Positions 2,278 through 57,678 of a stretch of 64,000 bases of DNA are shown here, piece after piece. The stretch is from an uncultured Bacilli bacterium (GTDB lineage: Bacteria > Bacillota_I > Bacilli_A > RF39 > UBA660): the NCBI GenBank assembly GCA_947629815.1, contig CANRFG010000004.1, positions 266 through 64,265 on the forward strand, read 5' to 3'. Below the pieces are notes generated by a model that was not told the origin of the DNA, did no database searches, and was given only the letters and a program-made list of their open reading frames with translations. How positions within the stretch are numbered: the first letter of the stretch is position 1; every line of letters begins with the position of its first letter. The position numbers and the translations under genes are program-made.

Positions 2278-2434
2278 TTTTAAGACAAATTTGTTTTAAT
2301 AATTTATATGAATAAATTTACTAAATGTAAAATATGTAACATAATTATATTAGTTGGTAGTTATTACTACTTGATTATTGGCATAAGAAAAGTTATTCGA
2401 CTTCTTCTCTATATACTCCAATTTTGTTTATAAC

Positions 2435-2463
2435 TTGCACAAACATTAATTTTATGGTATTAT
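2435..2463 (+). promoter_or_regulatory. sigma-A-like promoter, unit 1 (TTGCAC-17nt-TGg-TATTAT)
   Basis: Near-consensus -35, 17-nt spacer, extended -10. Same architecture conserved in unit 2. Confidence 0.45.
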
Positions 2464-2469
2464 GTATTT

Positions 2470-2584
2470 GGCAAGAGAAATTGCATAAAATAAAAAGGGA
2501 ACGTTCAGTTTTTGCGAGTTGAATGTCTACCCAAAAAATTAGTTCGACATTTAATTCTTATGAATTAAGTGTCATTTCTTTATT
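2470..2584 (+). ncRNA. Candidate ~110-nt sRNA (putative type I antitoxin RNA), copy 1
   Basis: Bounded by the promoter at 2435-2463 and the intrinsic terminator at 2546-2584. No conserved ORF. Internal hairpin gggaacgttca/tgaatgtctaccc. Confidence 0.4.
2546..2584. terminator. Bidirectional intrinsic terminator shared by convergent sRNA and peptide ORF (copy 1)
   Basis: Stem gacatttaattc/gaattaagtgtc with loop ttatg. T-run follows on the + strand and an A-run precedes it (T-run on the - strand). Confidence 0.5.
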
Positions 2585-2664
2585 ACTACTATCATAATGA
2601 TAAGGAGAAATAAAATGATAGTAATGAACTTTAGAACTTTTATTGTAAAAGTCTTAGTTTTCAC
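2572..2664 (-). CDS. 30-aa hydrophobic KK-terminated peptide, type I toxin-like (MKTKTFTIKVLKFITIILFLLIIMIVVIKK)
   Basis: GTG start 8 nt downstream of GAGGAGG, which lies in the perfectly conserved block. Stop abuts the terminator. Paralog in unit 2 has identical length and conservative or synonymous substitutions only. Confidence 0.5.
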   Translation of the reverse strand: MKTKTFTIKVLKFITIILFLLIIMIVVIKK

Positions 2665-2895
2665 TATATCAAACCTCCTCTCTGTAAGAGATTTGGTAGA
2701 CACTCAACAACTGATATTCCCTATATGAATTATATATCGTATATAATTATAAAACAAGCGAACAGACTACAAAATGAAATAAAATTTTTAAAAATATTCT
2801 ATAATTATATTAGTTAGTAGCTATTACTACTTGACTTATTGGTATAAGATTAGTCATTTGACTTTTTCTCTATATATTTTAATTTTGTTTATAAT

Positions 2896-2924
2896 TTGCA
2901 TAAATACTAATTTTATGATATTAT
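2896..2924 (+). promoter_or_regulatory. sigma-A-like promoter, unit 2 (TTGCAT-17nt-TGa-TATTAT)
   Basis: Positional homolog of the 2435-2463 promoter. Confidence 0.45.
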
Positions 2925-2930
2925 GAATAT

Positions 2931-3044
2931 GTCAAGGAAACTTGAATAAAATAAAAAGGGAACATTCAGTTTTTGCAAGTTGAATGTCTACCCAAAATAA
3001 ATTTGTTTAGGCACTTATTCTAGCGAATGAGTGTCATTTTTTTA
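2931..3044 (+). ncRNA. Candidate ~110-nt sRNA (putative type I antitoxin RNA), copy 2
   Basis: Promoter at 2896-2924, terminator at 3012-3044. Homologous to copy 1 with compensatory stem changes. Confidence 0.4.
3012..3044. terminator. Bidirectional intrinsic terminator (copy 2)
   Basis: Stem cacttattc/gaatgagtg (includes one G-U pair), loop tagc, T7 run. Stem sequence differs from copy 1 but pairing is preserved. Confidence 0.5.
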
Positions 3045-3126
3045 TTACTATAACCATTATGATTAGGAGTAGTAAAATGATAGAAATAAGCCTTAGAATT
3101 TTTATAATAAAAATCCTTTTCTTCAT
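3034..3126 (-). CDS. 30-aa hydrophobic KK-terminated peptide, type I toxin-like (MKKRIFIIKILRLISIILLLLIIMVIVIKK)
   Basis: ATG start 8 nt after GAGGAGG. 93 nt with no indels relative to copy 1. 16 differing codons, of which 4 are synonymous and most of the rest conservative. Confidence 0.5.
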   Translation of the reverse strand: MKKRIFIIKILRLISIILLLLIIMVIVIKK

Positions 3127-3380
3127 TTATATCAAACCTCCTCTCTGTAAGAGATTTGGTAGACACTCAACAACTGATATTCCCTATACAAATTATATAT
3201 TATATATAATTATAAAACAAGCGAACAACTATAAAAATATAACAAAATTATTAATTAAATATAGATTAGTTATATAATTTTTTATTTTTAACTACAATTT
3301 ATTTATACAAATTATTGAATATTATTAGGTCTTTTTTTTTGTAAAAAAAAATTGTATAATTATCTATATGGAGGTAAATT

Positions 3381-18317: not shown

Positions 18318-19607
18318 ATGATAGACATAAGATTAATAAGAGAAAATAAAGAAATGGTAAAAGAAAATATAAAGAAAAAATTTCAAGATAGTAAATTACC
18401 ATTAGTAGATGAAGTAGAAAAATTAGATATAGAACTTAGACAATTAAAATTAGAGGGCGATAATTTAAGACAAGAAAGAAATACAATCAGTAGTGAGATT
18501 GGTTCTTTAATGCGTGATAAAAAATTAGAAGAAGCAAATTCTAAAAAATTAGAAGTTGTAGAAATTAATAAGAAACTACAAACTATTGAAGAAAAAGAAG
18601 AAAAAATAAATCAAGAAATTAAAAGTAAAATGATGTTAATTCCTAATATAATTGATGAAAGTGTTCCAATTGGAAAAGATGATAGTGAGAATGTTGAGAT
18701 TGAAAAGTTTGGAGAACCAATCGTTCCAAACTATGAAATTCCATATCATGCAGACATAATGGAAAAGTTGTCAGGGCTTGATAAAGAATCTGCTGGAAGA
18801 ACAAGTGGTAATGGTTTTTATTATTTAATGGGTGATATTGCAAGACTTCATGAAGCAACAATTGCTTATGCAAGAGATTTTATGATTAATAAAGGTTTTA
18901 CATATTGTATACCTCCTTTTATGATAAGAGGAGATGTTGTTAATGGTGTAATGTCTTTTGCAGAAATGGATTCTATGATGTATAAAATAGAAAATGAAGA
19001 CTTATATTTAATTGGTACTTCTGAACATTCAATGATAGGTAAGTTTAAAGGCGAATTAATAGATGAAAAAGAGTTACCTATAACGATGACTTCTTATTCT
19101 CCTTGTTTTAGAAAAGAAGTAGGTGCGCATGGATTAGAAGAAAGAGGACTTTATAGAGTACATCAATTTGAAAAACAAGAAATGGTAGTTTTATGTAAGC
19201 CTGAAGATTCAATGGATTGGTATAATAAAATGTGGCAATTTACTGTTGAATTCTTTAGAAGCTTAGATGTCCCTGTTAGAACATTAGAATGTTGTAGTGG
19301 CGATTTAGCTGATTTAAAAGTAAAATCATGTGATGTTGAAGCATGGAGTCCAAGACAAAAAAAATATTTTGAAGTTGGCTCTTGTTCAACACTTGGAGAT
19401 GCCCAAGCAAGAAGATTAGGTATTAGAATGAAAACGGAAAGTGGCAATCAGTTCCTATCTACTTTAAACAATACTGTAATTGCAAGCCCTAGAGCGTTAA
19501 TAGCCATTATAGAAAATAATTATCAGGAAGATGGGTCAATAAAAATACCAAAAGTATTACAACAATATATGGGTGGAAAAGAGAAAATCGAAAAGAAGTA
19601 TATATAA
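18318..19607 (+). CDS. serS: Seryl-tRNA synthetase
   Basis: N-terminal coiled-coil arm. Class II motifs (RVHQFEKQEMV, GSCSTLGDAQARRL). AAGGAGG RBS. Confidence 0.9.
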   Translation: MIDIRLIRENKEMVKENIKKKFQDSKLPLVDEVEKLDIELRQLKLEGDNLRQERNTISSEIGSLMRDKKLEEANSKKLEVVEINKKLQTIEEKEEKINQEIKSKMMLIPNIIDESVPIGKDDSENVEIEKFGEPIVPNYEIPYHADIMEKLSGLDKESAGRTSGNGFYYLMGDIARLHEATIAYARDFMINKGFTYCIPPFMIRGDVVNGVMSFAEMDSMMYKIENEDLYLIGTSEHSMIGKFKGELIDEKELPITMTSYSPCFRKEVGAHGLEERGLYRVHQFEKQEMVVLCKPEDSMDWYNKMWQFTVEFFRSLDVPVRTLECCSGDLADLKVKSCDVEAWSPRQKKYFEVGSCSTLGDAQARRLGIRMKTESGNQFLSTLNNTVIASPRALIAIIENNYQEDGSIKIPKVLQQYMGGKEKIEKKYI

Positions 19608-19655
19608 AGGCTCTTTGAAAAAATTAAAGAATTATATAATACTTCTTTTTCCTTG
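19471..19655. repeat. serS 3' end plus terminator region (repeat copy 1, native)
   Basis: This segment recurs at 20293, 21663 and 23433 at about 85-90% identity. Confidence 0.8.
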
Positions 19656-19768
19656 TTCAACTATATTATTTATATTTTTAATGAGTTAGGTTATATTGAA
19701 GAAAAATGTCACAAGTGGCAAAAATCTTCAAAAAGTTTAAAGAATGATAGAAAGGAAGTTAGTTAACT

Positions 19769-20230
19769 ATGAAAGAAATTAAAAGAGATATTTACTTAAA
19801 CAGATTAATTAATCGAAAGGAAAATGGCTTAATTAAAATTATAACTGGTATTAGAAGATGTGGTAAGTCTTATTTATTAAATCCACTATTTAAAAATTAT
19901 CTACTTGATAGTGGTGTAAAAGAAAATCATATAATGGAAAATATTATATATAACGAATTAATGATAAGGGGCTATAATGTTGATGTAGGTGTAGTTGAAA
20001 TTAGAGATGAAAATAAAGATAGGAAGCAGTTAGAAGTTGATTTTGTATGCAATTTAGGAGATAAAAGATATTATATACAATCGGCATAAATTTAGAAACA
20101 AGAGAAAAAACAATACAAGAAGAACGACCTTTAATGAATATAAATGATAATTTTAAAAAAATAATTGTAGTAAAAGACAACATTAAGCATTGGTATACAG
20201 AAGAAGGTATATTAGTAATTGGGGTGAAGA
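19769..20230 (+). pseudogene. Degraded AAA_14/DUF4143 ATPase (internal deletion plus premature stop)
   Basis: 106-aa ORF has the N-terminal P-loop (GIRRCGKSYLL) fused directly to a C-terminal-type segment (EVDFVCNLGDKRYYIQ). The extreme C-terminus (IIVVKDNIKHWYTEEGILVIGVKNSC) is encoded out of the ORF at 20163-20240. Intact homologs are about 400 aa. Confidence 0.6.
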
Positions 20231-20292
20231 ATTCTTGCTAAATCAAAATAGTATGGATTTATAGTTTTATTGGTGTATATTGAAACTATAAG

Positions 20293-20528
20293 AAATATTG
20301 TAATTGCAAGCCCTAGAGCGTTAATAACTATTATAGAAAATAATTATCAGGAAGATGGGTGAGTAAAATACCAAAAGTATTACAACAATATATGGGTGGA
20401 AAAGAAATTATAAAAAAAGACATTAAATAGATTAACTATTTATGTGTTAAAAAGATTAGTCATTTATAAAAAAGAAGTATATAAAGATTCTTTCAAAAAT
20501 TGAAGAATTAGTTACATACTTCTTTTTA
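20293..20528. repeat. serS 3'-end/terminator repeat copy 2
   Basis: aatattgtaattgcaagccctagagcgttaata...tatgggtggaaaag plus a downstream aagaagtatataaag...tacttcttttt hairpin segment. Confidence 0.8.
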
Positions 20529-20545
20529 GTAATTTTTTTAATTGT

Positions 20546-21547
20546 TTAAACTTTATAATAACTTTGATTTTTGCTTGTTGGCTTTTCTGGATTAGTCATT
20601 TTTATAAGACCATTCGCAAGAGCTGGGGCTAGATAATTTTTTCTAAACGATAATCTTGATTTTAGACCTAATTTATCCATTAACTCTTTAGTTGACATAG
20701 CAGGTTGCCCTTCCATTGCGGTTAATAGTTTTTTAACATAAGTACTAATATGATTTGCCTCTATTGATGTACTTTCAATTAAGTTTTCTAAAATTTCATC
20801 AATCATTTTTAACATAAATTCAATGAATTCAGTTGAATTTCCCTTTAAATTACAATTATTGATAGTTTCATAATATTCATCCTGATATTCTTTTATTTGT
20901 GATTCAATTGGAACATATTCAAAGATATTTTCCCAATTAGATAGCTGTATGTTTTGCCATAGTCTTACAGTTCTTCCGTTTCCATCACTAAATGGGTGAA
21001 TAAAAACAAATTCATAGTGAAATACTGATGATAATATTAAAGGATGGATAGTATTTTTGTTTTCTTTCATCCAACTAAATAATTGCTCCATAAGTGAACT
21101 TACCATTTCAGGTTTAGGACACATATGAATACATTTATCTCCATCAAAGACGCCTTCATTACCTTTTCTAAATTCTCCTGATTCTTGAACAGTTAAAAAG
21201 GTCATTATGCCATGAATTTTTTTTAAATCTTTTATAGAATATGGATTTATTTCTTTCATCATTTCATAAGCTTTATAAGCATTTTTTACTTCTTGTATTT
21301 CTTTTTGATTGCCAATAACTATTTTCCCGTCGATAATATCTTTTACTTCTTTAAAAGATAAAGAATTATCTTCTATTGCAAGTGAAGAATGAATAGATTG
21401 AATTCGATTATTCCTTCTTAAAATTGGTAACTTACTTAAATCTTTATAATTATCTAATTTTCCTATCTTTTTCATTATGGAAGCAACCAAGTAGAGCATT
21501 TTATTTGTTATTTCAAAAGGTGGAGCATATTTATTCATTAAAATCAC
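20546..21547 (-). CDS. Fic-family protein with C-terminal winged-helix domain
   Basis: Canonical Fic motif HPFSDGNGRTVR. GAGGTGA RBS. Confidence 0.85.
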   Translation of the reverse strand: MILMNKYAPPFEITNKMLYLVASIMKKIGKLDNYKDLSKLPILRRNNRIQSIHSSLAIEDNSLSFKEVKDIIDGKIVIGNQKEIQEVKNAYKAYEMMKEINPYSIKDLKKIHGIMTFLTVQESGEFRKGNEGVFDGDKCIHMCPKPEMVSSLMEQLFSWMKENKNTIHPLILSSVFHYEFVFIHPFSDGNGRTVRLWQNIQLSNWENIFEYVPIESQIKEYQDEYYETINNCNLKGNSTEFIEFMLKMIDEILENLIESTSIEANHISTYVKKLLTAMEGQPAMSTKELMDKLGLKSRLSFRKNYLAPALANGLIKMTNPEKPTSKNQSYYKV

Positions 21548-21662
21548 CTCATTTTTAATACTATTATTATACTAAAAACAACTATAATAGTCAATCATCT
21601 TATATGTTTTTCTATATGCTATCTTGTATTCTAATATTATTTAAATTGGTGCAAATAGAAAA

Positions 21663-21945
21663 AATATTGTAATTGCAAGCCCTAGAATGTTAATAGCTAT
21701 TATAGAAAACAATTATCAGGAAGATAGGTCAATAAAAATATCAAAAGTATTACAATCATATATGGTGGAAAAGAAATTATAAAAAAGACTTAAAATAGAT
21801 TAAATATTTATGTTATATTTGTTATTTATTTAATAGGTATAAAAATGTTACATATAATCTCAAAAAAAGATTATTTGCTATAAAAAGGAGTATATATAAA
21901 GGTTCTTTTAAAAATTTAAAGAATTATATAATACTTTTTTTTAAC
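21663..21945. repeat. serS 3'-end/terminator repeat copy 3
   Basis: Homologous to 19471-19655. Shares an extra ttggtgcaaatagaaaaaat 5' extension with copy 4. Confidence 0.8.
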
Positions 21946-21966
21946 TTGTTTATTGAATTAAATAAA

Positions 21967-22005
21967 TTTATAGTGACATTTATAGTGACATTTATAGTGA
22001 CATAT
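21967..22005. repeat. 3 x 12-bp direct repeats (tttatagtgaca) about 30 bp upstream of the AlbA_2 gene
   Basis: Perfect triple tandem. Candidate operator/iteron. Confidence 0.6.
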
Positions 22006-22033
22006 GGTAATATTATAATGGAGGTAAAAATCA

Positions 22034-23359
22034 ATGCTAGGATTATTAGAGGATAAAAGAAATGAATTTAAAATAAAACTTACAGACACCCTTGAAAAAG
22101 AAGTAATTGCCTTTTTAAATACTGAAGGAGGAAATATATTTATAGGAATTGATGATAAAGGAAATATTAACGGGGTAACTGGTAATATTGATTTATTGCA
22201 AAGAACAATAAAAGATAGAATAAAAGATAACATTATGCCTTCAACTTTAGGTTTATTTGATGTTGTTGTAAATGAATTAAAAGGGAAGAAATATATTCAA
22301 ATTGTTGTAGCAAAAGGTGCAGAAAGACCATATTATTTAAGGGGAATGGGTATGACTCCAGATAGTTGTTTCATTAGAGTAGGGTCAGCTGTTGAAAGCA
22401 TGAATGGGGAAACGATTCTTAATTTATTTTCAAAACGTGCTAGAAATTCTTTAAAAAATATAAAGTCACCAAAACAGGATTTAGAATTTAAAACATTAAA
22501 AATATATTATCAAGAAAATGGTTTTGAAATAAATGATAATTTTTTAAAAAAATTAGATTTTTATGATGATAACGATGACTTTAATTATATTGCTTATTTA
22601 CTTTCAGACAACAATAATATATCCGTACAATTTGCAAAATATGCTGGAGACGATGTTTATAATTTGATAGAAAATGAAGATTTTGGTTTTTGTTCTTTAA
22701 TTAAAATAACAGACAATGTTTTAAATAAAATTATGATAGAAAATAAAACCTATACAAAAATAGAAACTCCAGTTAGAAAAGAAATAAAAATGTATGATTA
22801 TAATGCAGTAAAAGAATTGATTACTAATGCACTTATTCATAATGATTGGTGTAATGGTTATTCTCCAAAATTTGAAATGTTTGATAACAAGTTAGTTATA
22901 TCCTCAAATGGAGGGATACAAGAAGGAGTTAGTCAAGAAGAATTTTTAGAAGGTTTTTCTAATCCTAGAAATCCCGAATTAATGAGAATTTTTAGAGATT
23001 TAAATTTTGTGGAACAACTTGGAACAGGAATACAAAGAGTACTAAAAACGTATGATAAAAGTATTTTTGAATTTTTTCCTAATCACATACGAGTAACAAT
23101 ACCTTTTAATAATAATGAATTTAAAGATAATAATGAAGCTTCAGAAAATGTATCATTCAAATCTTTTAATAATTTACAAAAATCAATTATAAAATTAATA
23201 ATGGACAAACCATCAATAACTCAAGAAGAATTGGCTAGGTTGCTAGATGTAAATAAAAGGACTATTATAAGAAATTTTAAAATTCTTATTGAGTGTGATT
23301 ATATTGAAAGAGTGGGCGCCAATAAAAATGGTTATTGGAAAGTTAATCATAAATTATAA
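22034..23359 (+). CDS. AlbA_2 (Schlafen-like) + HATPase_c_4 + wHTH putative transcriptional regulator (RecG-C-like divergent AAA)
   Basis: N-terminus NEFKIKLTDTLEKEVIAFLNTEGGNIFIGIDDKGNI is typical of AlbA_2. C-terminal HTH (ITQEELARLLDVNKRTIIRN). GGAGGT RBS. Confidence 0.7.
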   Translation: MLGLLEDKRNEFKIKLTDTLEKEVIAFLNTEGGNIFIGIDDKGNINGVTGNIDLLQRTIKDRIKDNIMPSTLGLFDVVVNELKGKKYIQIVVAKGAERPYYLRGMGMTPDSCFIRVGSAVESMNGETILNLFSKRARNSLKNIKSPKQDLEFKTLKIYYQENGFEINDNFLKKLDFYDDNDDFNYIAYLLSDNNNISVQFAKYAGDDVYNLIENEDFGFCSLIKITDNVLNKIMIENKTYTKIETPVRKEIKMYDYNAVKELITNALIHNDWCNGYSPKFEMFDNKLVISSNGGIQEGVSQEEFLEGFSNPRNPELMRIFRDLNFVEQLGTGIQRVLKTYDKSIFEFFPNHIRVTIPFNNNEFKDNNEASENVSFKSFNNLQKSIIKLIMDKPSITQEELARLLDVNKRTIIRNFKILIECDYIERVGANKNGYWKVNHKL

Positions 23360-23432
23360 ATTAGAAATAAATGCATTTATATAAAACAAAAAAATAAGTG
23401 ACGTATTATAAACTTTTGGTGCAAATAGAAAA

Positions 23433-23545
23433 AATATTGTAATTGCAACTCCTAGAGTGTTAATAGCTATTATAGAAAATAATAATCAGGAAGATGGGTG
23501 AATAAAAATACCAAAAGTATTACAACTATATATGGGTGGAAAAGA
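23433..23545. repeat. serS 3'-end repeat copy 4
   Basis: Homologous to serS 19471-19600. Followed by its own terminator hairpin. Confidence 0.8.
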
Positions 23546-23562
23546 AAACATAAAATGCAGTT

Positions 23563-23595
23563 TTAAGACAATAAAATGACAAAGTTATTGTCATT
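23563..23595 (+). terminator. Intrinsic terminator
   Basis: gacaataa-aatgacaaag-ttattgtc followed by a T-run. Confidence 0.5.
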
Positions 23596-23638
23596 TTTAG
23601 TTTATTTGATATAATTTAATTAGGTTATTTAGAAAGAG

Positions 23639-31023: not shown

Positions 31024-32316
31024 ATGAAATATTTAAAAAAATTTTTTGTGTTGTTTTTTGTTGCAATATTTATTTGTGGTTGTAGTATTAAAACAGAAGT
31101 TTCAATGAATATAAAAAATGATAAGTCTATGGATTTCTCTTATTTAATAGCTTTAGATGATGAGTTGATTAATGCTGCAATGTCTATGCAAAATAGTATC
31201 GGAACTGAAGACTCAGAAAATAATGAAGTTAAAGAGTATACAGAAGAAGAAAAATGGAAATTTATTGAAGATGAAATTTCTGAACAATATAGTACTCAAG
31301 GTTTTCAGAAAGAAAAATATGAGCAAGATGGATATAGAGGATTTAGATTTACTAAGAAAATATCTAATATAGATTATATATCAGGTGATGAAATTAATTT
31401 TAATTTTTCTGATTTTTCAAATATTGACAAATCAATAGTTTTTATAAAAGATGGCGATACATATACTGCAAAGTTTTCTTCAGCAGGAATTGTTAATGAA
31501 AATTCACAAGACTTGGATGGAAGTTCACAGCCTTTAGATGAAAATTCACAGGATTTTGGCGAAGGTACTCAGGATATGCCTAGTATTAAATATGATACAA
31601 AATTTATAGTAACTTTACCAAATAAATCAATAAGTAATAATGCAGATGAAGTATCTAAAGATGGAAAAACTTTAATATGGGATTTATCTAGTTCTGAAGA
31701 TAAAGACCTAAATTTTTCATTTAAGTTTTCAGGAATAAGTATGGATACTATCGTGTACATAGTACTTGGTGTATTAATTATAGGTATATCAATTGGAATT
31801 TTATTTGTTATCAAAAAAGGAAAACATAATAAATCTAATCTTAATAAATCTAATAATGTCAATGACCAAAATTTTGATAATAATATAAATGAGATACAAG
31901 GGATTCAAAATCAACAAGTAAATATGATGAATCAAACACCAATCATGCCAGAGCAACAAATAAATACGATGAATCAAACACCAATTATGCCAGACCAACA
32001 ACTAAATATAATGAATCAAACACCAATTATGCCAGACCAACAAGTAAATATGATGAATCAAACACCAACTATGCCAAATCAACAAGTAAATATGATGAAT
32101 CAAACACCAATCATGCCAGACCAACAAATAAATATGATGAATCAAACACCAATCATGCCAGACCAACAAATAAATGCGATGAATCAACCAAATACACCAC
32201 AAGAACAACCATTTGATGTTAATGCAATGATAGAACAATCGCTTAATTTAAATAACACACAAAATAACTTAAATGATAGTTCAAATAACCAATCTAATGA
32301 TTCTATAAATATGTAA
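31024..32316 (+). CDS. Lipoprotein with internal TM and Q/N/M-rich tandem-repeat C-terminus
   Basis: Lipobox FICGCS. Six to seven 14-aa repeats QQ(V/I)NMMNQTPIMPD. Confidence 0.6.
   Translation: MKYLKKFFVLFFVAIFICGCSIKTEVSMNIKNDKSMDFSYLIALDDELINAAMSMQNSIGTEDSENNEVKEYTEEEKWKFIEDEISEQYSTQGFQKEKYEQDGYRGFRFTKKISNIDYISGDEINFNFSDFSNIDKSIVFIKDGDTYTAKFSSAGIVNENSQDLDGSSQPLDENSQDFGEGTQDMPSIKYDTKFIVTLPNKSISNNADEVSKDGKTLIWDLSSSEDKDLNFSFKFSGISMDTIVYIVLGVLIIGISIGILFVIKKGKHNKSNLNKSNNVNDQNFDNNINEIQGIQNQQVNMMNQTPIMPEQQINTMNQTPIMPDQQLNIMNQTPIMPDQQVNMMNQTPTMPNQQVNMMNQTPIMPDQQINMMNQTPIMPDQQINAMNQPNTPQEQPFDVNAMIEQSLNLNNTQNNLNDSSNNQSNDSINM
31911..32200 (+). repeat. 42-bp in-frame tandem repeats (~7 copies) inside the lipoprotein gene
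   Basis: caacaa(g/a)taaatatgatgaatcaaacaccaatcatgccagac units with point variants. Confidence 0.85.
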
Positions 32317-45496: not shown

Positions 45497-45596
45497 ATTT
45501 ATCAAAGTTACATTTCCATATAAAAATCATAAGTTTGAATTTGATATAGGTATAAAAATAGTGTAAAATGTAGTTGTAAAAAAGGAGTGAATTAAA

Positions 45597-46682
45597 ATGA
45601 ATGAAGAAAATAATTTAAATGAAATTAATAATTCAGTAGATAATAGTTTAAATAAAAATGAAAATCAGATAAATATAAATCAAGAAAATAACAATCAATT
45701 AAATAACAATATAAGTAATCAAAAGAATAACAAAAATACATTAAAAGTAATATTAATAGTAATACTTACAATACTATTAATAGCAGCATTAAGTTTTATA
45801 GTATATGATAAGTTTATCAATAAGGATGAAGTAAATAGTAATACAAACACTGAAGAAAATAGTAATCAGGGAAATAATACTCAAGCAAATGATGATAAAC
45901 AAAACAATAATCAAGAGAATAATAATCAACAAAATATAGAGGAAAATGACAATGCCAATAATTCTTCAATTGTTGTTGATGGAAATTTGCAGTACATGAT
46001 TAGTGATAAGGAAAAAGATTTGATAAAAAATCTTACATTTCCATTTAGTTATGTTAATTGGATTGGTAGTTCGTATGGAATAGTATCTCCAACCAATTTT
46101 AATGTTTCAAATATGACTAAGAATGATAAGATGTGGTTTACTCTTTCATTAACGGACAAATATAATGAATCTGGGGAGAGCAATCCAGATTGTAAAGACT
46201 GCACTTTGACAATTGGTGATGAATATTATAATACTTCTATAAATGAAGAAGAAGTCAAGAAGACATACGAAAAAATTTTTGGATATGAAACACCATTTGA
46301 AAATATGGATATAGATACAAAAGGTGGCATTCCTTGCTACACACCATATAAATATGATGCTAATACAAAGAGATATTGGGGAAATAGTAGTTGTGGAGGA
46401 GATACCTGTTCAATGTCTTTCAATATTATAACGAAAGTAGAGGAAGGTAACGATGAAATAATTGTTTATTTCCAATCTGGAATTTTTAATCCCTGTGAAG
46501 AGCCAGCTAAGATTGAAATGATAAATTATGATAAAGTGTTGTGGACAGGAACAAATAATATTGATATTGTAAACTCTGCTATAATAAATTTAGCGAAACA
46601 AAATAAATTAGATACATATAAGATAACATTTAAAAAACAAAGTGATGGAAAATACTATGTATATAGTGGAGAATGGCAATAG
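45597..46682 (+). CDS. N/Q-rich single-pass membrane protein with Cys-rich variable ectodomain (paralog A)
   Basis: N-terminal ~95 aa and C-terminal ~20 aa shared with 46793..48193. Central domain unrelated. Confidence 0.6.
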   Translation: MNEENNLNEINNSVDNSLNKNENQININQENNNQLNNNISNQKNNKNTLKVILIVILTILLIAALSFIVYDKFINKDEVNSNTNTEENSNQGNNTQANDDKQNNNQENNNQQNIEENDNANNSSIVVDGNLQYMISDKEKDLIKNLTFPFSYVNWIGSSYGIVSPTNFNVSNMTKNDKMWFTLSLTDKYNESGESNPDCKDCTLTIGDEYYNTSINEEEVKKTYEKIFGYETPFENMDIDTKGGIPCYTPYKYDANTKRYWGNSSCGGDTCSMSFNIITKVEEGNDEIIVYFQSGIFNPCEEPAKIEMINYDKVLWTGTNNIDIVNSAIINLAKQNKLDTYKITFKKQSDGKYYVYSGEWQ

Positions 46683-46732
46683 TCATTCTTTTTCCAATTT
46701 ACACAAAATCTGTAAAGAAAATAACCCCAAAC

Positions 46733-46763
46733 TTGACAAAGATTGGGGGGGGGAGTGTACAAT
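46733..46763 (+). promoter_or_regulatory. Candidate promoter TTGACA-19nt-TACAAT with G9 homopolymer (46745-46753) in the spacer
   Basis: Consensus -35. Spacer is 2 nt longer than the optimum solely because of the G tract. 30 bp upstream of ATG 46793. Confidence 0.45.
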
Positions 46764-46792
46764 ATAATTGTACAAAAAAGGAGTGAATTAAA

Positions 46793-48193
46793 ATGAATGA
46801 AGAAAATAATTTAAATGAAATTAATAATTCAGTAAATAATAGTTTAAATGAAAGTGATAATCAGCAAAATGTAAATCAAGAAAATAACAATCAATTAAAT
46901 AACAATATAAGTAATCAAAAGAATAACAAAAATACATTAAAAGTAATATTAATAGTAATACTTACAATACTATTAATAGCAGCATTAAGTTTTATAGTAT
47001 ATGATAAGTTTATTAATAATGATAAAGTAAATAGTTCAACAAATACTGAAGAAAATAGTAATCAGGGAAATACGAATGGGAATGAATTTTTAGGAAATAG
47101 TCAATACTCTTTAATAAATCTTTCTGAGGAAGAAAAAGCATTTTTAGAAAAGTATTCTATTTTATCATATGAACCATCATTGTCAGACGATAACAGATGG
47201 ATAAATATTTATTATGGTTTTGAAGATTCTAATACAATATGCTACAATTGTAAGAATAGTGATAAAAAAACTATAAAATTAAACGAAGAAATTCTTTATG
47301 GTACTTCATTTTCCTATGGATTTACTTATGGACTTGTTTTTTTAACAGAATCTGGTAACTTATATTTCTGTGATGATGAATGTTTACAAAATGGTAATGG
47401 CATTGATGATATGTATTTCATTTTAAATGATAAAAATATACTTGGTTTAAATTATATATATAATGATGATAGCATGTTCGCACTTTTAGTTGTTAAGACA
47501 AATAGTGGATTAAAAAAAATTTATTATAGTGATGTAAATGACCCTAACAATGAAGATTTAAAAAATGAAAATCATATAAATAGAATCGTTGAAATGCTAG
47601 ATGGTTCTATGTGCCCAACTAGAGAGACACAGACTAACACTGATTGTGATAAAGCACTTAATCCAAATAACAAAAATAGACTTGTTAATATGCTAGAATT
47701 AGCTATTTCTACACTCAATTATTATGAGGATAAAGTAGTTGGTAATACTTCTTATGGTTCATTTGATGCAAAACAAGTAGAGGAACACTTTAGAGAAATT
47801 TTTGGACCAGATGTTGAGTATAAAAACATGGATATTAGAAATGAAAAAGATAGTTTCTTAACATATGATTCAGAGACAAACATGTATAATGAAGGTAGTA
47901 TTATGGTAGGAGATACACCATATGAAAATAGAATTGAATTATATAAACAAGAACATGATAATGAAAATGAAATAAGTATATATTGGTACTCATATGGAGT
48001 TAATTATGCTTGTAATGAAGAATGTGAATATTTGACAGTAGATTCAAAAGGAAAAGAGTATAAAGTATCAAATGATAATATGGAAAGTGATATTGCTAAA
48101 TTAAAAAAAGAGGGAAATATTGCTATATATAAAATAACATTAAAAAAACAAAGTGATGGAAAATTCTATGTATATAGTGGAGAATGGCAATAA
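46793..48193 (+). CDS. N/Q-rich single-pass membrane protein with Cys-rich variable ectodomain (paralog B)
   Basis: First ~285 nt are about 93% identical to paralog A. C-terminus KITLKKQSDGKFYVYSGEWQ is shared. Confidence 0.6.
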   Translation: MNEENNLNEINNSVNNSLNESDNQQNVNQENNNQLNNNISNQKNNKNTLKVILIVILTILLIAALSFIVYDKFINNDKVNSSTNTEENSNQGNTNGNEFLGNSQYSLINLSEEEKAFLEKYSILSYEPSLSDDNRWINIYYGFEDSNTICYNCKNSDKKTIKLNEEILYGTSFSYGFTYGLVFLTESGNLYFCDDECLQNGNGIDDMYFILNDKNILGLNYIYNDDSMFALLVVKTNSGLKKIYYSDVNDPNNEDLKNENHINRIVEMLDGSMCPTRETQTNTDCDKALNPNNKNRLVNMLELAISTLNYYEDKVVGNTSYGSFDAKQVEEHFREIFGPDVEYKNMDIRNEKDSFLTYDSETNMYNEGSIMVGDTPYENRIELYKQEHDNENEISIYWYSYGVNYACNEECEYLTVDSKGKEYKVSNDNMESDIAKLKKEGNIAIYKITLKKQSDGKFYVYSGEWQ

Positions 48194-57425: not shown

Positions 57426-57489
57426 ACCTTGAAATAAAATTAGTTTATGATATAATACTTAATAGTTAAAAGTTATGACGAAAAAGTAG

Positions 57490-57678
57490 TAATAAAATAA
57501 GTTATTTAAAGAGAGCTAGTGTAGGTGTGAATCTAGTAATAACATTTTATGAATTCATTTTCTGAACTTTATAATGCAAAGTTATAACGGTAACGCGTTT
57601 TAGTTAATGAGGTAGTATAATCTACGAATTAAGGTGGTACCACGTAATCACGTCCTTATAATAGGATGTGATTTTTTT
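57490..57678 (+). promoter_or_regulatory. T-box riboswitch leader for pheST
   Basis: T-box sequence aattaaggtggtaccacg (57627-57644). Terminator atcacgtcc-ttataata-ggatgtgat plus T6. Upstream extended -10 TGaTATAAT. Confidence 0.75.

What the first reader, a model, noticed from the sequence alone, without database searches (positions are those of the whole stretch)
19471..23600. Four-fold repetition of the serS 3' end plus terminator delimiting three cargo islets
The last ~130 nt of serS plus its hairpin terminator recur at 20293-20528, 21663-21945 and 23433-23545. The copies are 85-90% identical. Copies 2-4 share an extra 5' extension (ttggtg...aatattg) that is absent from the native copy.
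Between successive copies lie three small islets:
(a) a degraded AAA_14/DUF4143 ATPase pseudogene;
(b) a Fic protein with the HPFSDGNGRTVR motif;
(c) 3x12-bp iterons followed by an AlbA_2/HATPase_c_4 regulator.
This is the footprint of repeated site-specific integration into the serS 3' end. Each element brings a replacement att copy. No integrase or recombinase remains in the window, which suggests decayed elements or trans-mobilised islets. The repeats may be a lineage-specific integration hotspot that could be used to find more cargo in related genomes.
Basis: seen in the sequence. Interest (0 to 1): 0.6.

Follow-up and report, generated by a model that had tools for sequence, protein, structure and literature searches.

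The report
Gene cassettes stacked behind serS
Three single-gene islets, at least two of phage-defence type, were inserted one after another at one exact nucleotide position near the end of the essential serS gene of an uncultured gut Bacilli bacterium, each leaving a dead copy of the gene's tail; related species use the same spot and share the same cassettes, but the enzyme responsible has not been found.

Summary
The last ~113 nt of serS (18318-19607) recur three times downstream. The copies are 87-93% identical, and each pseudo-copy carries a stop codon or a frameshift. Each is preceded by a 20-27-nt arm (TTGGTG...AAAT) that the native gene lacks.

The repeats bound three one-gene islets:
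- a deleted PDC-S01-type ATPase;
- a SoFic-type Fic protein;
- an AlbA_2/HTH regulator with 3x12-bp iterons.

Related species (SerS 75-82% identical) have one-gene cassettes at the same nucleotide (AAT|ACTGTA). Cargo varies, and the same arm is present in most. The AlbA_2 and ATPase cassettes are 94-96% identical between species whose serS is ~78% identical, which indicates horizontal transfer.

Two other species carry a larger element with its own complete serS. It is inserted at the same position and truncates the host gene at codon ~389. This makes the position a real attachment site.

No recombinase was found in the window or in the 131 loci held. The only tyrosine recombinases found are Xer-like genes in three loci, none inside a cassette.

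Best reading: tandem accretion of recombinase-less mini-elements, mobilised in trans. Recombination by host homologous recombination is the main rival. This is a new variant of a known kind.

The parts
18318..19607 (+). serS (429 aa), the target gene. Its last 135 nt form repeat copy c1.
   Evidence: Pfam Seryl_tRNA_N and tRNA-synt_2b.
19473..19585 (+). c1 core, the functional copy. The recombination junction lies between 19472 and 19473 (AAT|ACTGTA).
   Evidence: and the junction table.
19590..19650 (+). Long terminator-like hairpin plus T-run after c1. It overlaps the last serS codons.
   Evidence: Fold -17.4 kcal/mol, z -4.7. Homologous hairpins follow c2 and c3 (family D2).
19651..20269 (+). 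Islet a: ATPase-A1 cassette (AAA_14/DUF4143, PDC-S01 type), now a pseudogene at 19769-20251 with an internal deletion of ~730 nt at ~19935. It carries the palindrome TTGAAGAAAAATGTCACAAGTGGCAAAAATCTTCAA at 19696-19731.
   Evidence: Pfam weak hits. About 96% nt identity to the intact L057 cassette. PADLOC PDC-S01 at 8.5e-118 for the intact homologue.
20270..20296 (+). Cassette end arm, type 1: TTGGTGTATATTGAAACTATAAGAAAT.
   Evidence: It is conserved across species and cargo types.
20297..20527 (+). c2: pseudo-copy of the serS end (core to ~20408, with TGA and a frameshift), then tail, spacer and hairpin (20469-20527).
20546..21538 (-). Islet b cargo: Fic protein (330 aa from the ATG). A promoter-like site lies at 21594-21566.
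   Evidence: Pfam Fic and Fic-like_C. PADLOC SoFic 4.9e-41. Promoter scan. A 93%-identical protein sits behind serS in another species.
21646..21665 (+). Cassette end arm, type 2: TTGGTGCAAATAGAAAAAAT, 7 nt shorter than type 1.
21666..21943 (+). c3: pseudo-copy (core to ~21777, frameshift), then spacer and hairpin (21881-21943).
21967..22002 (+). Three TTTATAGTGACA iterons at the left end of islet c. I infer they are the operator of the AlbA_2 regulator.
   Evidence: The same iterons lie before AlbA_2 homologues in L076, L106, L112 and L118.
22034..23359 (+). Islet c cargo: AlbA_2 (Schlafen-like) / HATPase_c_4 / winged-HTH protein, 441 aa.
   Evidence: Pfam. The cassette is 93.6% nt identical to L076 over 1506 nt.
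23416..23435 (+). Cassette end arm, type 2, identical to the arm at 21646.
23436..23615 (+). c4: last pseudo-copy (core to ~23548, in-frame TGA). It has its own tail, a different short hairpin (23573-23597) and the promoter-like site of the next gene (23588-23615). I infer it is the displaced original 3' end of serS.

Best explanation
The stretch is a tandem array of three recombinase-less, single-gene mini-elements. They accreted by site-specific recombination at one attachment site inside serS, at AAT|ACTGTA (window 19472|19473, codon ~386).

**What each mini-element consists of:**
- a serS-end mimic (core, tail and usually a long terminator hairpin);
- one cargo gene with its own promoter or operator;
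- a 20-27-nt right-end arm, TTGGTG...AAAT.

**Proposed mechanism.** Integration exchanges strands at the left edge of the ~113-nt core. serS stays intact because it reads into the copy supplied by the element. The previous 3' end is pushed downstream as a pseudo-copy carrying the arm on its left. Three rounds give c1 - ATPase - c2 - Fic - c3 - AlbA_2 - c4. In this scheme c4 is the original chromosomal end.

The recombinase is supplied in trans. The most likely source is a larger serS-targeting element such as the one in L005 and L013. Afterwards the repeats exchange sequence by gene conversion, which keeps the cores host-like.

**What is shown:** the repeats, the common junction, variable and horizontally shared cargo, the absence of a recombinase in cis, and a larger element at the same nucleotide.

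**What is inferred:** the order of the events, the trans-acting recombinase, the exact point of strand exchange, and the gene conversion.
For: 1. **Common junction.** Junctions from 9 other loci and the window's 3 copies align at AAT|A within about 3 nt.
2. **A larger element at the same nucleotide.** In L005 and L013 the host serS is cut at codon ~389.
   - The two host copies are only 74% nt identical. The L013 flank is syntenic with L021 at 80-86%.
   - At that nucleotide the sequence switches to an element end that is ~95% identical between the two hosts.
   - A complete second serS follows, 89% aa identical between the two hosts.
   - A phage-type replication-initiator-like gene and, in L013, tet and ant(6) genes also follow.
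   - That makes two independent insertions at one position joined to non-serS DNA. Homologous recombination does not produce this.
3. **Conserved arm.** The arm is 70-96% identical across species and across six cargo types. Four-fold degenerate sites of serS are 40-55% identical between the same species.
4. **Horizontal movement of cassettes.**
   - AlbA_2 cassette: 93.6% nt identity against 78.1% for serS.
   - ATPase-A1 cassette: 95.8% against 77.3%.
   - The high-identity block ends at the arm|core boundary for ATPase-A1 and at the TTGGTG start of the arm for AlbA_2.
   - The AlbA_2 and Fic cassettes also lie behind serS in further species, L106 and L124.
5. **c4 looks original.** Only c4 has a different terminator, and it carries the next gene's promoter. 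c1-c3 share a hairpin that follows serS in only about 10 of 81 loci, most of which carry cassettes or relics.
6. **No recombinase in cis**.
Against: - No recombinase was seen. The far end of the L005/L013 element lies outside the DNA held, so it is unknown whether that element has an integrase or carries the same arm.
- The serS-like cores cluster by genome (0.88-0.97 within, 0.65-0.83 between), although the cargo is near-identical between species. The model needs conspecific donors or later gene conversion to explain this.
- Mosaic features point to homologous exchange among the repeats: c2 and c4 share the TGA, c3 and c4 share the short arm, and L009 has a 105-nt perfect block.
- The AlbA_2 cargo with identical iterons also sits behind valS in three species, flanked by 32-39-nt repeats made of local sequence. 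One serS-specific enzyme cannot explain that.
- No circular form or empty site was found. IMG/VR and JGI scans for the arm gave nothing relevant.
Confidence: 0.55

Rival explanations
1. No dedicated recombinase is involved. Each cassette carries a ~113-nt mimic of the conserved serS end. Host homologous recombination (RecA) loops cassettes out between the direct repeats, re-inserts the circles by a single crossover (insertion-duplication), and swaps cargo by double crossover in the flanking repeats after DNA uptake. This would be a 'minimal mobile element' that brings its own second flank.
For: - No recombinase lies in or beside the cassettes in any of the 131 loci held.
- Cores are host-specific while cargo is shared.
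- Relics of cassette left arms and mosaic repeats are present.
- The same architecture occurs at valS, with repeats made of local sequence.
- In L009 and L106 the junction is shifted by a few nt (AAC rather than AAT).
- Minimal mobile elements are an accepted concept (PMC3787668).
Against: - Crossovers by homology should scatter through the core. All junctions instead sit at its left edge.
- The L005/L013 junction joins serS to non-homologous DNA at that same nucleotide in two hosts.
- The valS repeats are only 32-39 nt long, which is short for RecA.
- serS differs by 20-25% between species, which strongly suppresses homologous exchange.
- The model does not explain how the first copy, or the conserved arm, arose.
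Confidence: 0.25
2. The islets are the decayed stumps of three ordinary integrase-bearing islands or prophages. Each lost its integrase and almost all its genes by deletion. This is a CIME in the strict sense.
For: - Tandem accretion followed by decay is the textbook route (PMC5704250).
- Islet a is visibly decaying.
- Relics of left arms exist in L025, L038 and L073.
Against: - The same one-gene units with the same ends occur intact in several species: ATPase in L057 and L009, AlbA_2 in L076 and L106, Fic in L124.
- No fragment of an integration, replication or transfer gene was seen in any islet.
- Independent decay would not stop at the same boundaries each time.
Confidence: 0.1
3. The cassettes are Xer-exploiting elements (IMEX-like) that use the host chromosome-dimer recombinase on a dif-like sequence at the serS junction.
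For: - IMEX elements have no recombinase of their own and form tandem arrays (my own knowledge).
- In IMG/VR contigs L133 and L134 a Xer-like recombinase gene lies next to serS, with a microvirus prophage downstream.
Against: - By eye, and from remembered consensus sequences, the junction matches the B. subtilis and E. coli dif sites poorly.
- GC skew stays positive across the whole window, so there is no replication terminus here.
- The microvirus prophage lies 0.4-0.9 kb past serS, not at the junction.
Confidence: 0.05

Closest known systems
Tandem accretion of integrative elements and cis-mobilizable elements (CIMEs), e.g. ICESt1-related arrays at the 3' end of fda in Streptococcus thermophilus (PMC5704250)
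   Same: - Direct repeats of a housekeeping gene's 3' end bound successive elements.
- The inner elements lack integration genes.
- A new element integrates into an att site of the resident one.
   Different: - The units here are single genes of 0.6-1.5 kb, not decayed islands.
- They recur intact with a conserved 27-nt arm across species.
- No integrase-bearing partner was seen in the array.
- The identity segment is unusually long, ~113 nt plus a hairpin.
Prophages that integrate into a protein-coding gene and carry a substitute 3' end, e.g. phage 21 and e14 in icd of E. coli (own knowledge, not tested here)
   Same: The element supplies a diverged replacement for the end of an essential or important gene. 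The displaced end remains as a pseudo-copy.
   Different: Those elements encode their own integrase. Here none does, and the L005/L013 element replaces the whole gene rather than just its end.
Integron gene cassettes
   Same: One-gene, recombinase-less units are stacked in an array at one site. Each carries a short conserved recombination end, and cargo is exchangeable between hosts.
   Different: - There is no IntI, attI or common promoter next to the array.
- Cargo genes have their own promoters, and one (Fic) is inverted.
- The repeat is a mimic of a gene end, not an attC. Membership tests are not met.
Minimal mobile elements of Neisseria (PMC3787668)
   Same: Whole-gene cassettes without mobility genes vary at a fixed chromosomal place and are shared between lineages.
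   Different: There the cassettes sit between two conserved genes and move by homologous recombination in both. Here the right-hand flank is a pseudo-copy of the left-hand gene, downstream synteny is not conserved, and a precise junction exists.
Core-genome defence hot spots / defence islands (own knowledge)
   Same: Single-gene defence candidates (SoFic, PDC-S01) are clustered behind a core gene.
   Different: The hot spot here has a defined nucleotide junction and repeat scaffold. It is not just a variable interval.

Membership tests
CIME / tandem accretion at an att site | The element is flanked by direct repeats (attL, attR) that include the 3' end of the target gene. | tested here: met
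   Four copies are 87-93% identical, and all junctions fall at AAT|A.
CIME / tandem accretion at an att site | No integration or transfer genes lie inside the element. | tested here: met
   Pfam on the islet ORFs, a recombinase motif regex, and jackhmmer with a Xer seed over 1739 ORFs.
CIME / tandem accretion at an att site | The element derives from an ICE or IME by decay. | tested here: inconclusive
   No gene remnants were found. The same one-gene units are intact in other species, which argues against decay but cannot exclude an old origin.
CIME / tandem accretion at an att site | A related recombinase-bearing element uses the same att site and can mobilise the element. | tested here: inconclusive
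   A larger element is inserted at the same nucleotide in L005 and L013. Its recombinase and right end are not in the DNA held. Excision is not testable with these tools.
Integron cassette array | An integron integrase gene with attI and a common promoter lies next to the array. | tested here: not met
   Upstream lie serS, a 229-aa protein without Pfam hits, and polA. No tyrosine recombinase is present in the window.
Integron cassette array | Each cassette ends in an attC imperfect palindrome, and the cargo is promoterless and co-oriented. | tested here: not met
   The hairpins are terminator-like and lie on the serS-mimic side. Fic is inverted with its own promoter-like site, and AlbA_2 has iterons and a promoter-like site.
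IMEX (Xer-dependent integrating elements) | Integration occurs at the chromosomal dif site near the replication terminus. | tested here: not met
   GC skew is positive across all 64 kb and the genes are co-oriented. Comparison with dif consensus sequences was by eye and from memory only.
Minimal mobile element (homologous cassette exchange) | Variable cassettes lie between two conserved flanking genes, with no mobility genes. | tested here: inconclusive
   The left flank (serS) is conserved and no mobility genes are present. Genes downstream are not syntenic across species. The right flank is a serS pseudo-copy.
Minimal mobile element (homologous cassette exchange) | Movement occurs by transformation plus RecA-dependent recombination. 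| not testable with these tools
   This needs genetics or read-level crossover mapping.
SoFic defence protein (cargo of islet b) | Match to the SoFic models. | tested here: inconclusive
   PADLOC SoFic gives 4.9e-41 over residues 7-293. The NCBIfam SoFic equivalog gives 53 bits against a cut-off of 550. The protein is a Fic-family member, but SoFic orthology is not shown.
PDC-S01 defence candidate (cargo of islet a) | Full-length match to a PDC-S01 model and an intact gene. | tested here: not met
   The intact homologues L057 and L009 match at 1e-118 to 1e-131. The window copy is a deleted pseudogene.

The most novel reading that the evidence does not exclude
Uncultured RF39-like gut Bacilli may have an integron-like economy of single-gene cassettes, mostly of defence type, that carry no recombinase. 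Each cassette would travel with a short mimic of the end of an essential aminoacyl-tRNA synthetase gene (serS, and in a parallel family valS), plus a terminator and a conserved end arm. That mimic would serve as its landing module. Insertion, stacking and exchange would be driven in trans, either by an as yet unseen recombinase of larger elements that carry a complete spare serS, or by the host's own recombination machinery.
Probability: 0.3. Interest if true: 0.7.

Novelty: new variant of a known kind. Interest (0 to 1): 0.5.

Why it matters
- **A precise marker for finding cargo.** The arm plus AAT|ACTGTA gives an easily searched marker for accessory and defence genes in a poorly known, uncultured gut lineage whose assemblies break at exactly this array.
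- **An unusual form of gene mobility.** Gene-sized units without any mobility gene are shared between species at one nucleotide position. This raises the question of which enzyme serves them.
- **Possible links to other elements.** If the larger serS-carrying element with tet and ant(6) genes supplies the enzyme, then resistance elements and defence cassettes would share one integration system. Disrupting an essential gene while carrying a whole replacement copy would be an unusual integration strategy.
- **If host recombination does the work,** this would be a clean example of cassettes that carry their own homology to a conserved essential gene.

Tried and rejected
- **Assembly artefact or simple tandem duplication.** Rejected. 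Independent contigs from four samples share the junctions. The copies differ by 7-13%, and the arm is not present in the native gene.
- **Strain-level empty site.** Exact-protein look-ups of SerS, the SPFH neighbour and AlbA_2 returned only the same arrangement. Presence/absence within the species could not be tested.
- **Arm pattern in IMG/VR.** No hits.
- **Arm pattern in JGI metagenomes.** One hit inside an ABC-transporter gene of an unrelated genome, which is a chance match.
- **Other DNA patterns in IMG/VR.** The serS-end pattern and the L005 element-end pattern each gave no hits.
- **L013 element DNA against plasmids.** No match.
- **Recombinase hunt.** The motif regex and jackhmmer from a Xer seed over all ORFs then held found only a Xer-like gene 6 kb upstream of serS in L025. 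A later phmmer run showed two more Xer-like genes, next to serS in L133 and L134. Pfam on about 45 window and neighbour ORFs found none.
- **The arm as a vertically inherited neutral relic.** Rejected. It is far more conserved than four-fold degenerate sites.
- **The hairpin and the GGKEKIEKK tail as strictly cassette-borne.** Only partly upheld. The hairpin is associated with cassettes, but similar tails are common in cassette-free species.
- **ATPase-A2 as serS-specific.** Rejected. An 80%-identical copy sits behind a peptidase gene without repeats, and another sits behind serS without any remnant.
- **Rfam.** No match in the region.
- **Literature.** Searches found no description of serS as an integration site in this lineage. 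The DUF4143 search was uninformative.

Full report
**Observation.** The window is 24.4% G+C. serS lies at 18318-19607 (Pfam Seryl_tRNA_N and tRNA-synt_2b).

- The repeat finder returns a four-copy family at 19453-19579, 20277-20403, 21646-21772 and 23416-23542.
- I anchored the shared core at 19473, 20297, 21666 and 23436. Over 113-117 nt the copies are 87-93% identical in all pairs, in a star-like pattern.
- Translated in the serS frame, c2 and c4 carry the same TCA>TGA stop. c2 and c3 each carry a 1-nt deletion.
- Each pseudo-copy is preceded by an arm the native gene lacks. The arm is TTGGTGTATATTGAAACTATAAGAAAT at 20270, and a version 7 nt shorter at 21646 and 23416. A degenerate pattern for it hits only these three sites, with none expected by chance.
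- c1-c3 are followed by homologous long hairpins with T-runs (z -3.6 to -4.7). c4 has a different short hairpin and the best promoter-like site for the next gene.
- Contigs from four metagenome samples carry the same junctions, so this is not an assembly artefact.

**Organism and relatives.** The 80 best SerS relatives among species-representative genomes are uncultured 'Bacilli' or 'Tenericutes' gut MAGs, 75-82% identical. Gene order downstream of serS is poorly conserved.

A serS-end pseudo-copy downstream of serS, with one gene in between, occurs in these loci:

| Locus | Cargo |
|---|---|
| L009, L057 | intact AAA_14/DUF4143 ATPases |
| L066 | GNAT acetyltransferase |
| L074 | 472-aa zinc-ribbon membrane protein |
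| L084 | 338-aa protein without Pfam hits |
| L076 | AlbA_2 |

- L012 and L023 keep decayed remnants.
- L025, L038 and L073 keep relics of cassette left arms.
- Look-ups of cargo homologues added L106 (AlbA_2, 97% aa) and L124 (Fic, 93% aa). Both lie directly behind serS with a remnant.
- PADLOC assigns the Fic protein to SoFic (4.9e-41) and the ATPases to candidate system PDC-S01 (1e-118 to 1e-131).

**Anatomy of a unit.** A remnant has five parts:
1. The arm.
2. A ~113-nt core, AYTGTAATTGCA...GGTGGAAAAGA.
3. A divergent tail.
4. Sometimes a spacer.
5. In one sub-family, the long hairpin.

All remnant junctions align at AAT|A within about 3 nt. The arm is itself a diverged, in-frame piece of serS (LVYIETIRN against ..YVHTLNN). 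It is 70-96% identical across species and cargo types, while four-fold degenerate sites of serS in the same species pairs are 40-55% identical. It is therefore either constrained or spread horizontally.

**Mobility.**

| Cassette and comparison | Cassette nt identity | serS nt identity |
|---|---|---|
| AlbA_2, window vs L076 | 93.6% over 1506 nt | 78.1% |
| ATPase-A1, window vs L057 | 95.8% over 380 nt (~96% from 19697 to 20297, apart from the window's ~730-nt deletion) | 77.3% |
| Fic, window vs L124 | 85.7% | 77.2% |
| AlbA_2 block, window vs L106 | 89.3% | 75.4% |

On the right, the high-identity block ends at the arm|core boundary for ATPase-A1 and at the TTGGTG start of the arm for AlbA_2. 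By contrast, the cores cluster by genome (0.88-0.97 within a genome, 0.65-0.83 between). Each remnant is closest to its own host's serS, with L074 the clear exception. L009 has a perfect 105-nt block with a sharp right edge.

**A larger element at the same nucleotide.** L005 and L013 each contain two serS genes.
- The upstream copy stops at residue 389.
- The upstream copies are 74% nt identical between the two loci and belong to different host lineages. L013's copy is 88% aa identical to L014 and L021, and its upstream flank is syntenic with L021 at 80-86%.
- At AAT| the sequence switches to CCTGTAGTAGGCTTATGCAC.... This is ~95% identical between the two loci for about 120 nt.
- A complete serS follows that is 89% aa identical between the loci.
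- After that comes an HTH_36 protein resembling phage replication initiators, XRE repressors and a UvrD-like helicase in L005. In L013 a tet-like ribosomal-protection GTPase, ant(6) and PadR also follow.
- No displaced host 3' end lies within the 10 kb held, so the element is longer and its recombinase is unseen.

These are two independent insertions at one nucleotide, joined to non-serS DNA. That is the signature of site-specific integration, and the position is the same one used by the cassettes.

**Recombinases.** No recombinase lies in or beside any cassette.
- The motif regex found only a Xer-like gene 6 kb upstream of serS in L025.
- jackhmmer from that seed over 1739 ORFs of all loci then held, plus the window, found nothing else.
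- A later phmmer run showed two more Xer-like genes, next to serS in L133 and L134.
- Pfam on the window's ORFs, and the annotations attached to identical contigs, show none.

**Complications.** AlbA_2 homologues at 81-87% aa, with the same iterons, lie directly behind valS in three other species. They are flanked by 32-39-nt near-perfect repeats of the last ~20 nt of valS plus its terminator. L113 shows an array there. So the habit of sitting behind a synthetase gene between repeats of its end is not limited to serS. One serS-specific enzyme cannot explain everything. ATPase-A2 homologues also occur behind serS without remnants, and behind a peptidase gene.

**Interpretation.** I favour tandem accretion of recombinase-less mini-elements at a real att site, with strand exchange at the left edge of the core, a recombinase supplied in trans, and later gene conversion among the repeats (0.55). 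The main rival is recombination by the host's homologous machinery acting on the 113-nt mimic (0.25). That rival explains the host-like cores, the mosaics and the valS parallel. It does not explain the fixed junction or the L005/L013 junction. Decay of three full islands (0.1) and Xer-dependent integration (0.05) fit less well. For the Xer case there is no terminus in the window, and the junction matches dif sites poorly (comparison from memory).

**Comparison with known systems.**
- The closest concept is tandem accretion with CIMEs (PMC5704250). It differs in unit size, in the recurrence of intact one-gene units with a conserved arm, and in the lack of a visible helper in the arrays.
- Integron membership fails on the defining features.
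- The minimal mobile element concept (PMC3787668) matches only the rival mechanism.
- I found no paper describing serS as an integration site in this lineage.

**Verdict.** This is a new variant of a known kind. Interest is moderate at 0.5, and would be higher if the recombinase-free or trans-served cassette economy at synthetase gene ends is borne out.

Noticed in passing
L005 7606-10275 and L013 8610-11281 (related loci): Two serS genes lie in tandem. The host copy is truncated at codon ~389 by a mobile element that carries a complete serS of its own. The element also carries a phage-type replication-initiator-like gene and, in L013, tet-like and ant(6) resistance genes. Its far end and recombinase lie outside the DNA held.
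   Followed up: partly
L108 6883-8421; L112 3883-5352; L118 3892-5418; L113 2600-5400: AlbA_2/HATPase_c_4 genes with the same TTTATAGTGACA iterons sit directly behind valS in other species. They are flanked by 32-39-nt repeats of the valS end plus terminator. In L112 the AlbA_2 reading frame ends inside the duplicated valS codons. L113 has an array of such units.
   Followed up: partly
L132-L134 (IMG/VR contigs): Microviridae (gokushovirus-like) prophage genes lie 0.4-0.9 kb downstream of serS. A 349-aa Xer-like tyrosine recombinase gene lies divergently upstream of serS. Short repeats, TTTTACGCAAAG(A/T)TAT, occur in the spacer.
   Followed up: partly
window 31837-32232: Seven or more tandem copies of a 42-nt unit (14-aa repeats) lie inside the 430-aa ORF 31024-32316, which has no Pfam hit on record.
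   Followed up: no
window 2323-3254: A tandem duplication of ~460 nt (81-89% identical) lies in a stretch without ORFs of 100 aa or more, between 2277 and 3381. It has no Rfam match.
   Followed up: no
window 45578-48193: Two adjacent paralogous genes (361 and 466 aa, no Pfam hits) have first 299 nt, including 19 nt upstream, that are 95% identical. Their last 120 nt are 76% identical.
   Followed up: no
window 19696-19731; L057 7160-7275: The palindrome TTGAAGAAAAATGYCACAAGTGGCAAAAATCTTCAA lies at the left end of ATPase-A1 cassettes. In L057 two copies bracket a promoter. ATPase-A2 cassettes instead carry two AAAGTTTTTCCAATTCAACCAAAAAA iterons. These are probably operators.
   Followed up: no
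window 20360-20368 and 23499-23507; 21646-21665 and 23416-23435: c2 and c4 share the same TCA>TGA stop, while c3 and c4 share the shortened arm. This mosaic pattern suggests gene conversion among the pseudo-copies.
   Followed up: partly
window 57466-57660: A T-box leader (94 bits, just above the gathering score) lies upstream of pheS. serS itself has only a 65-nt leader and no T-box.
   Followed up: no
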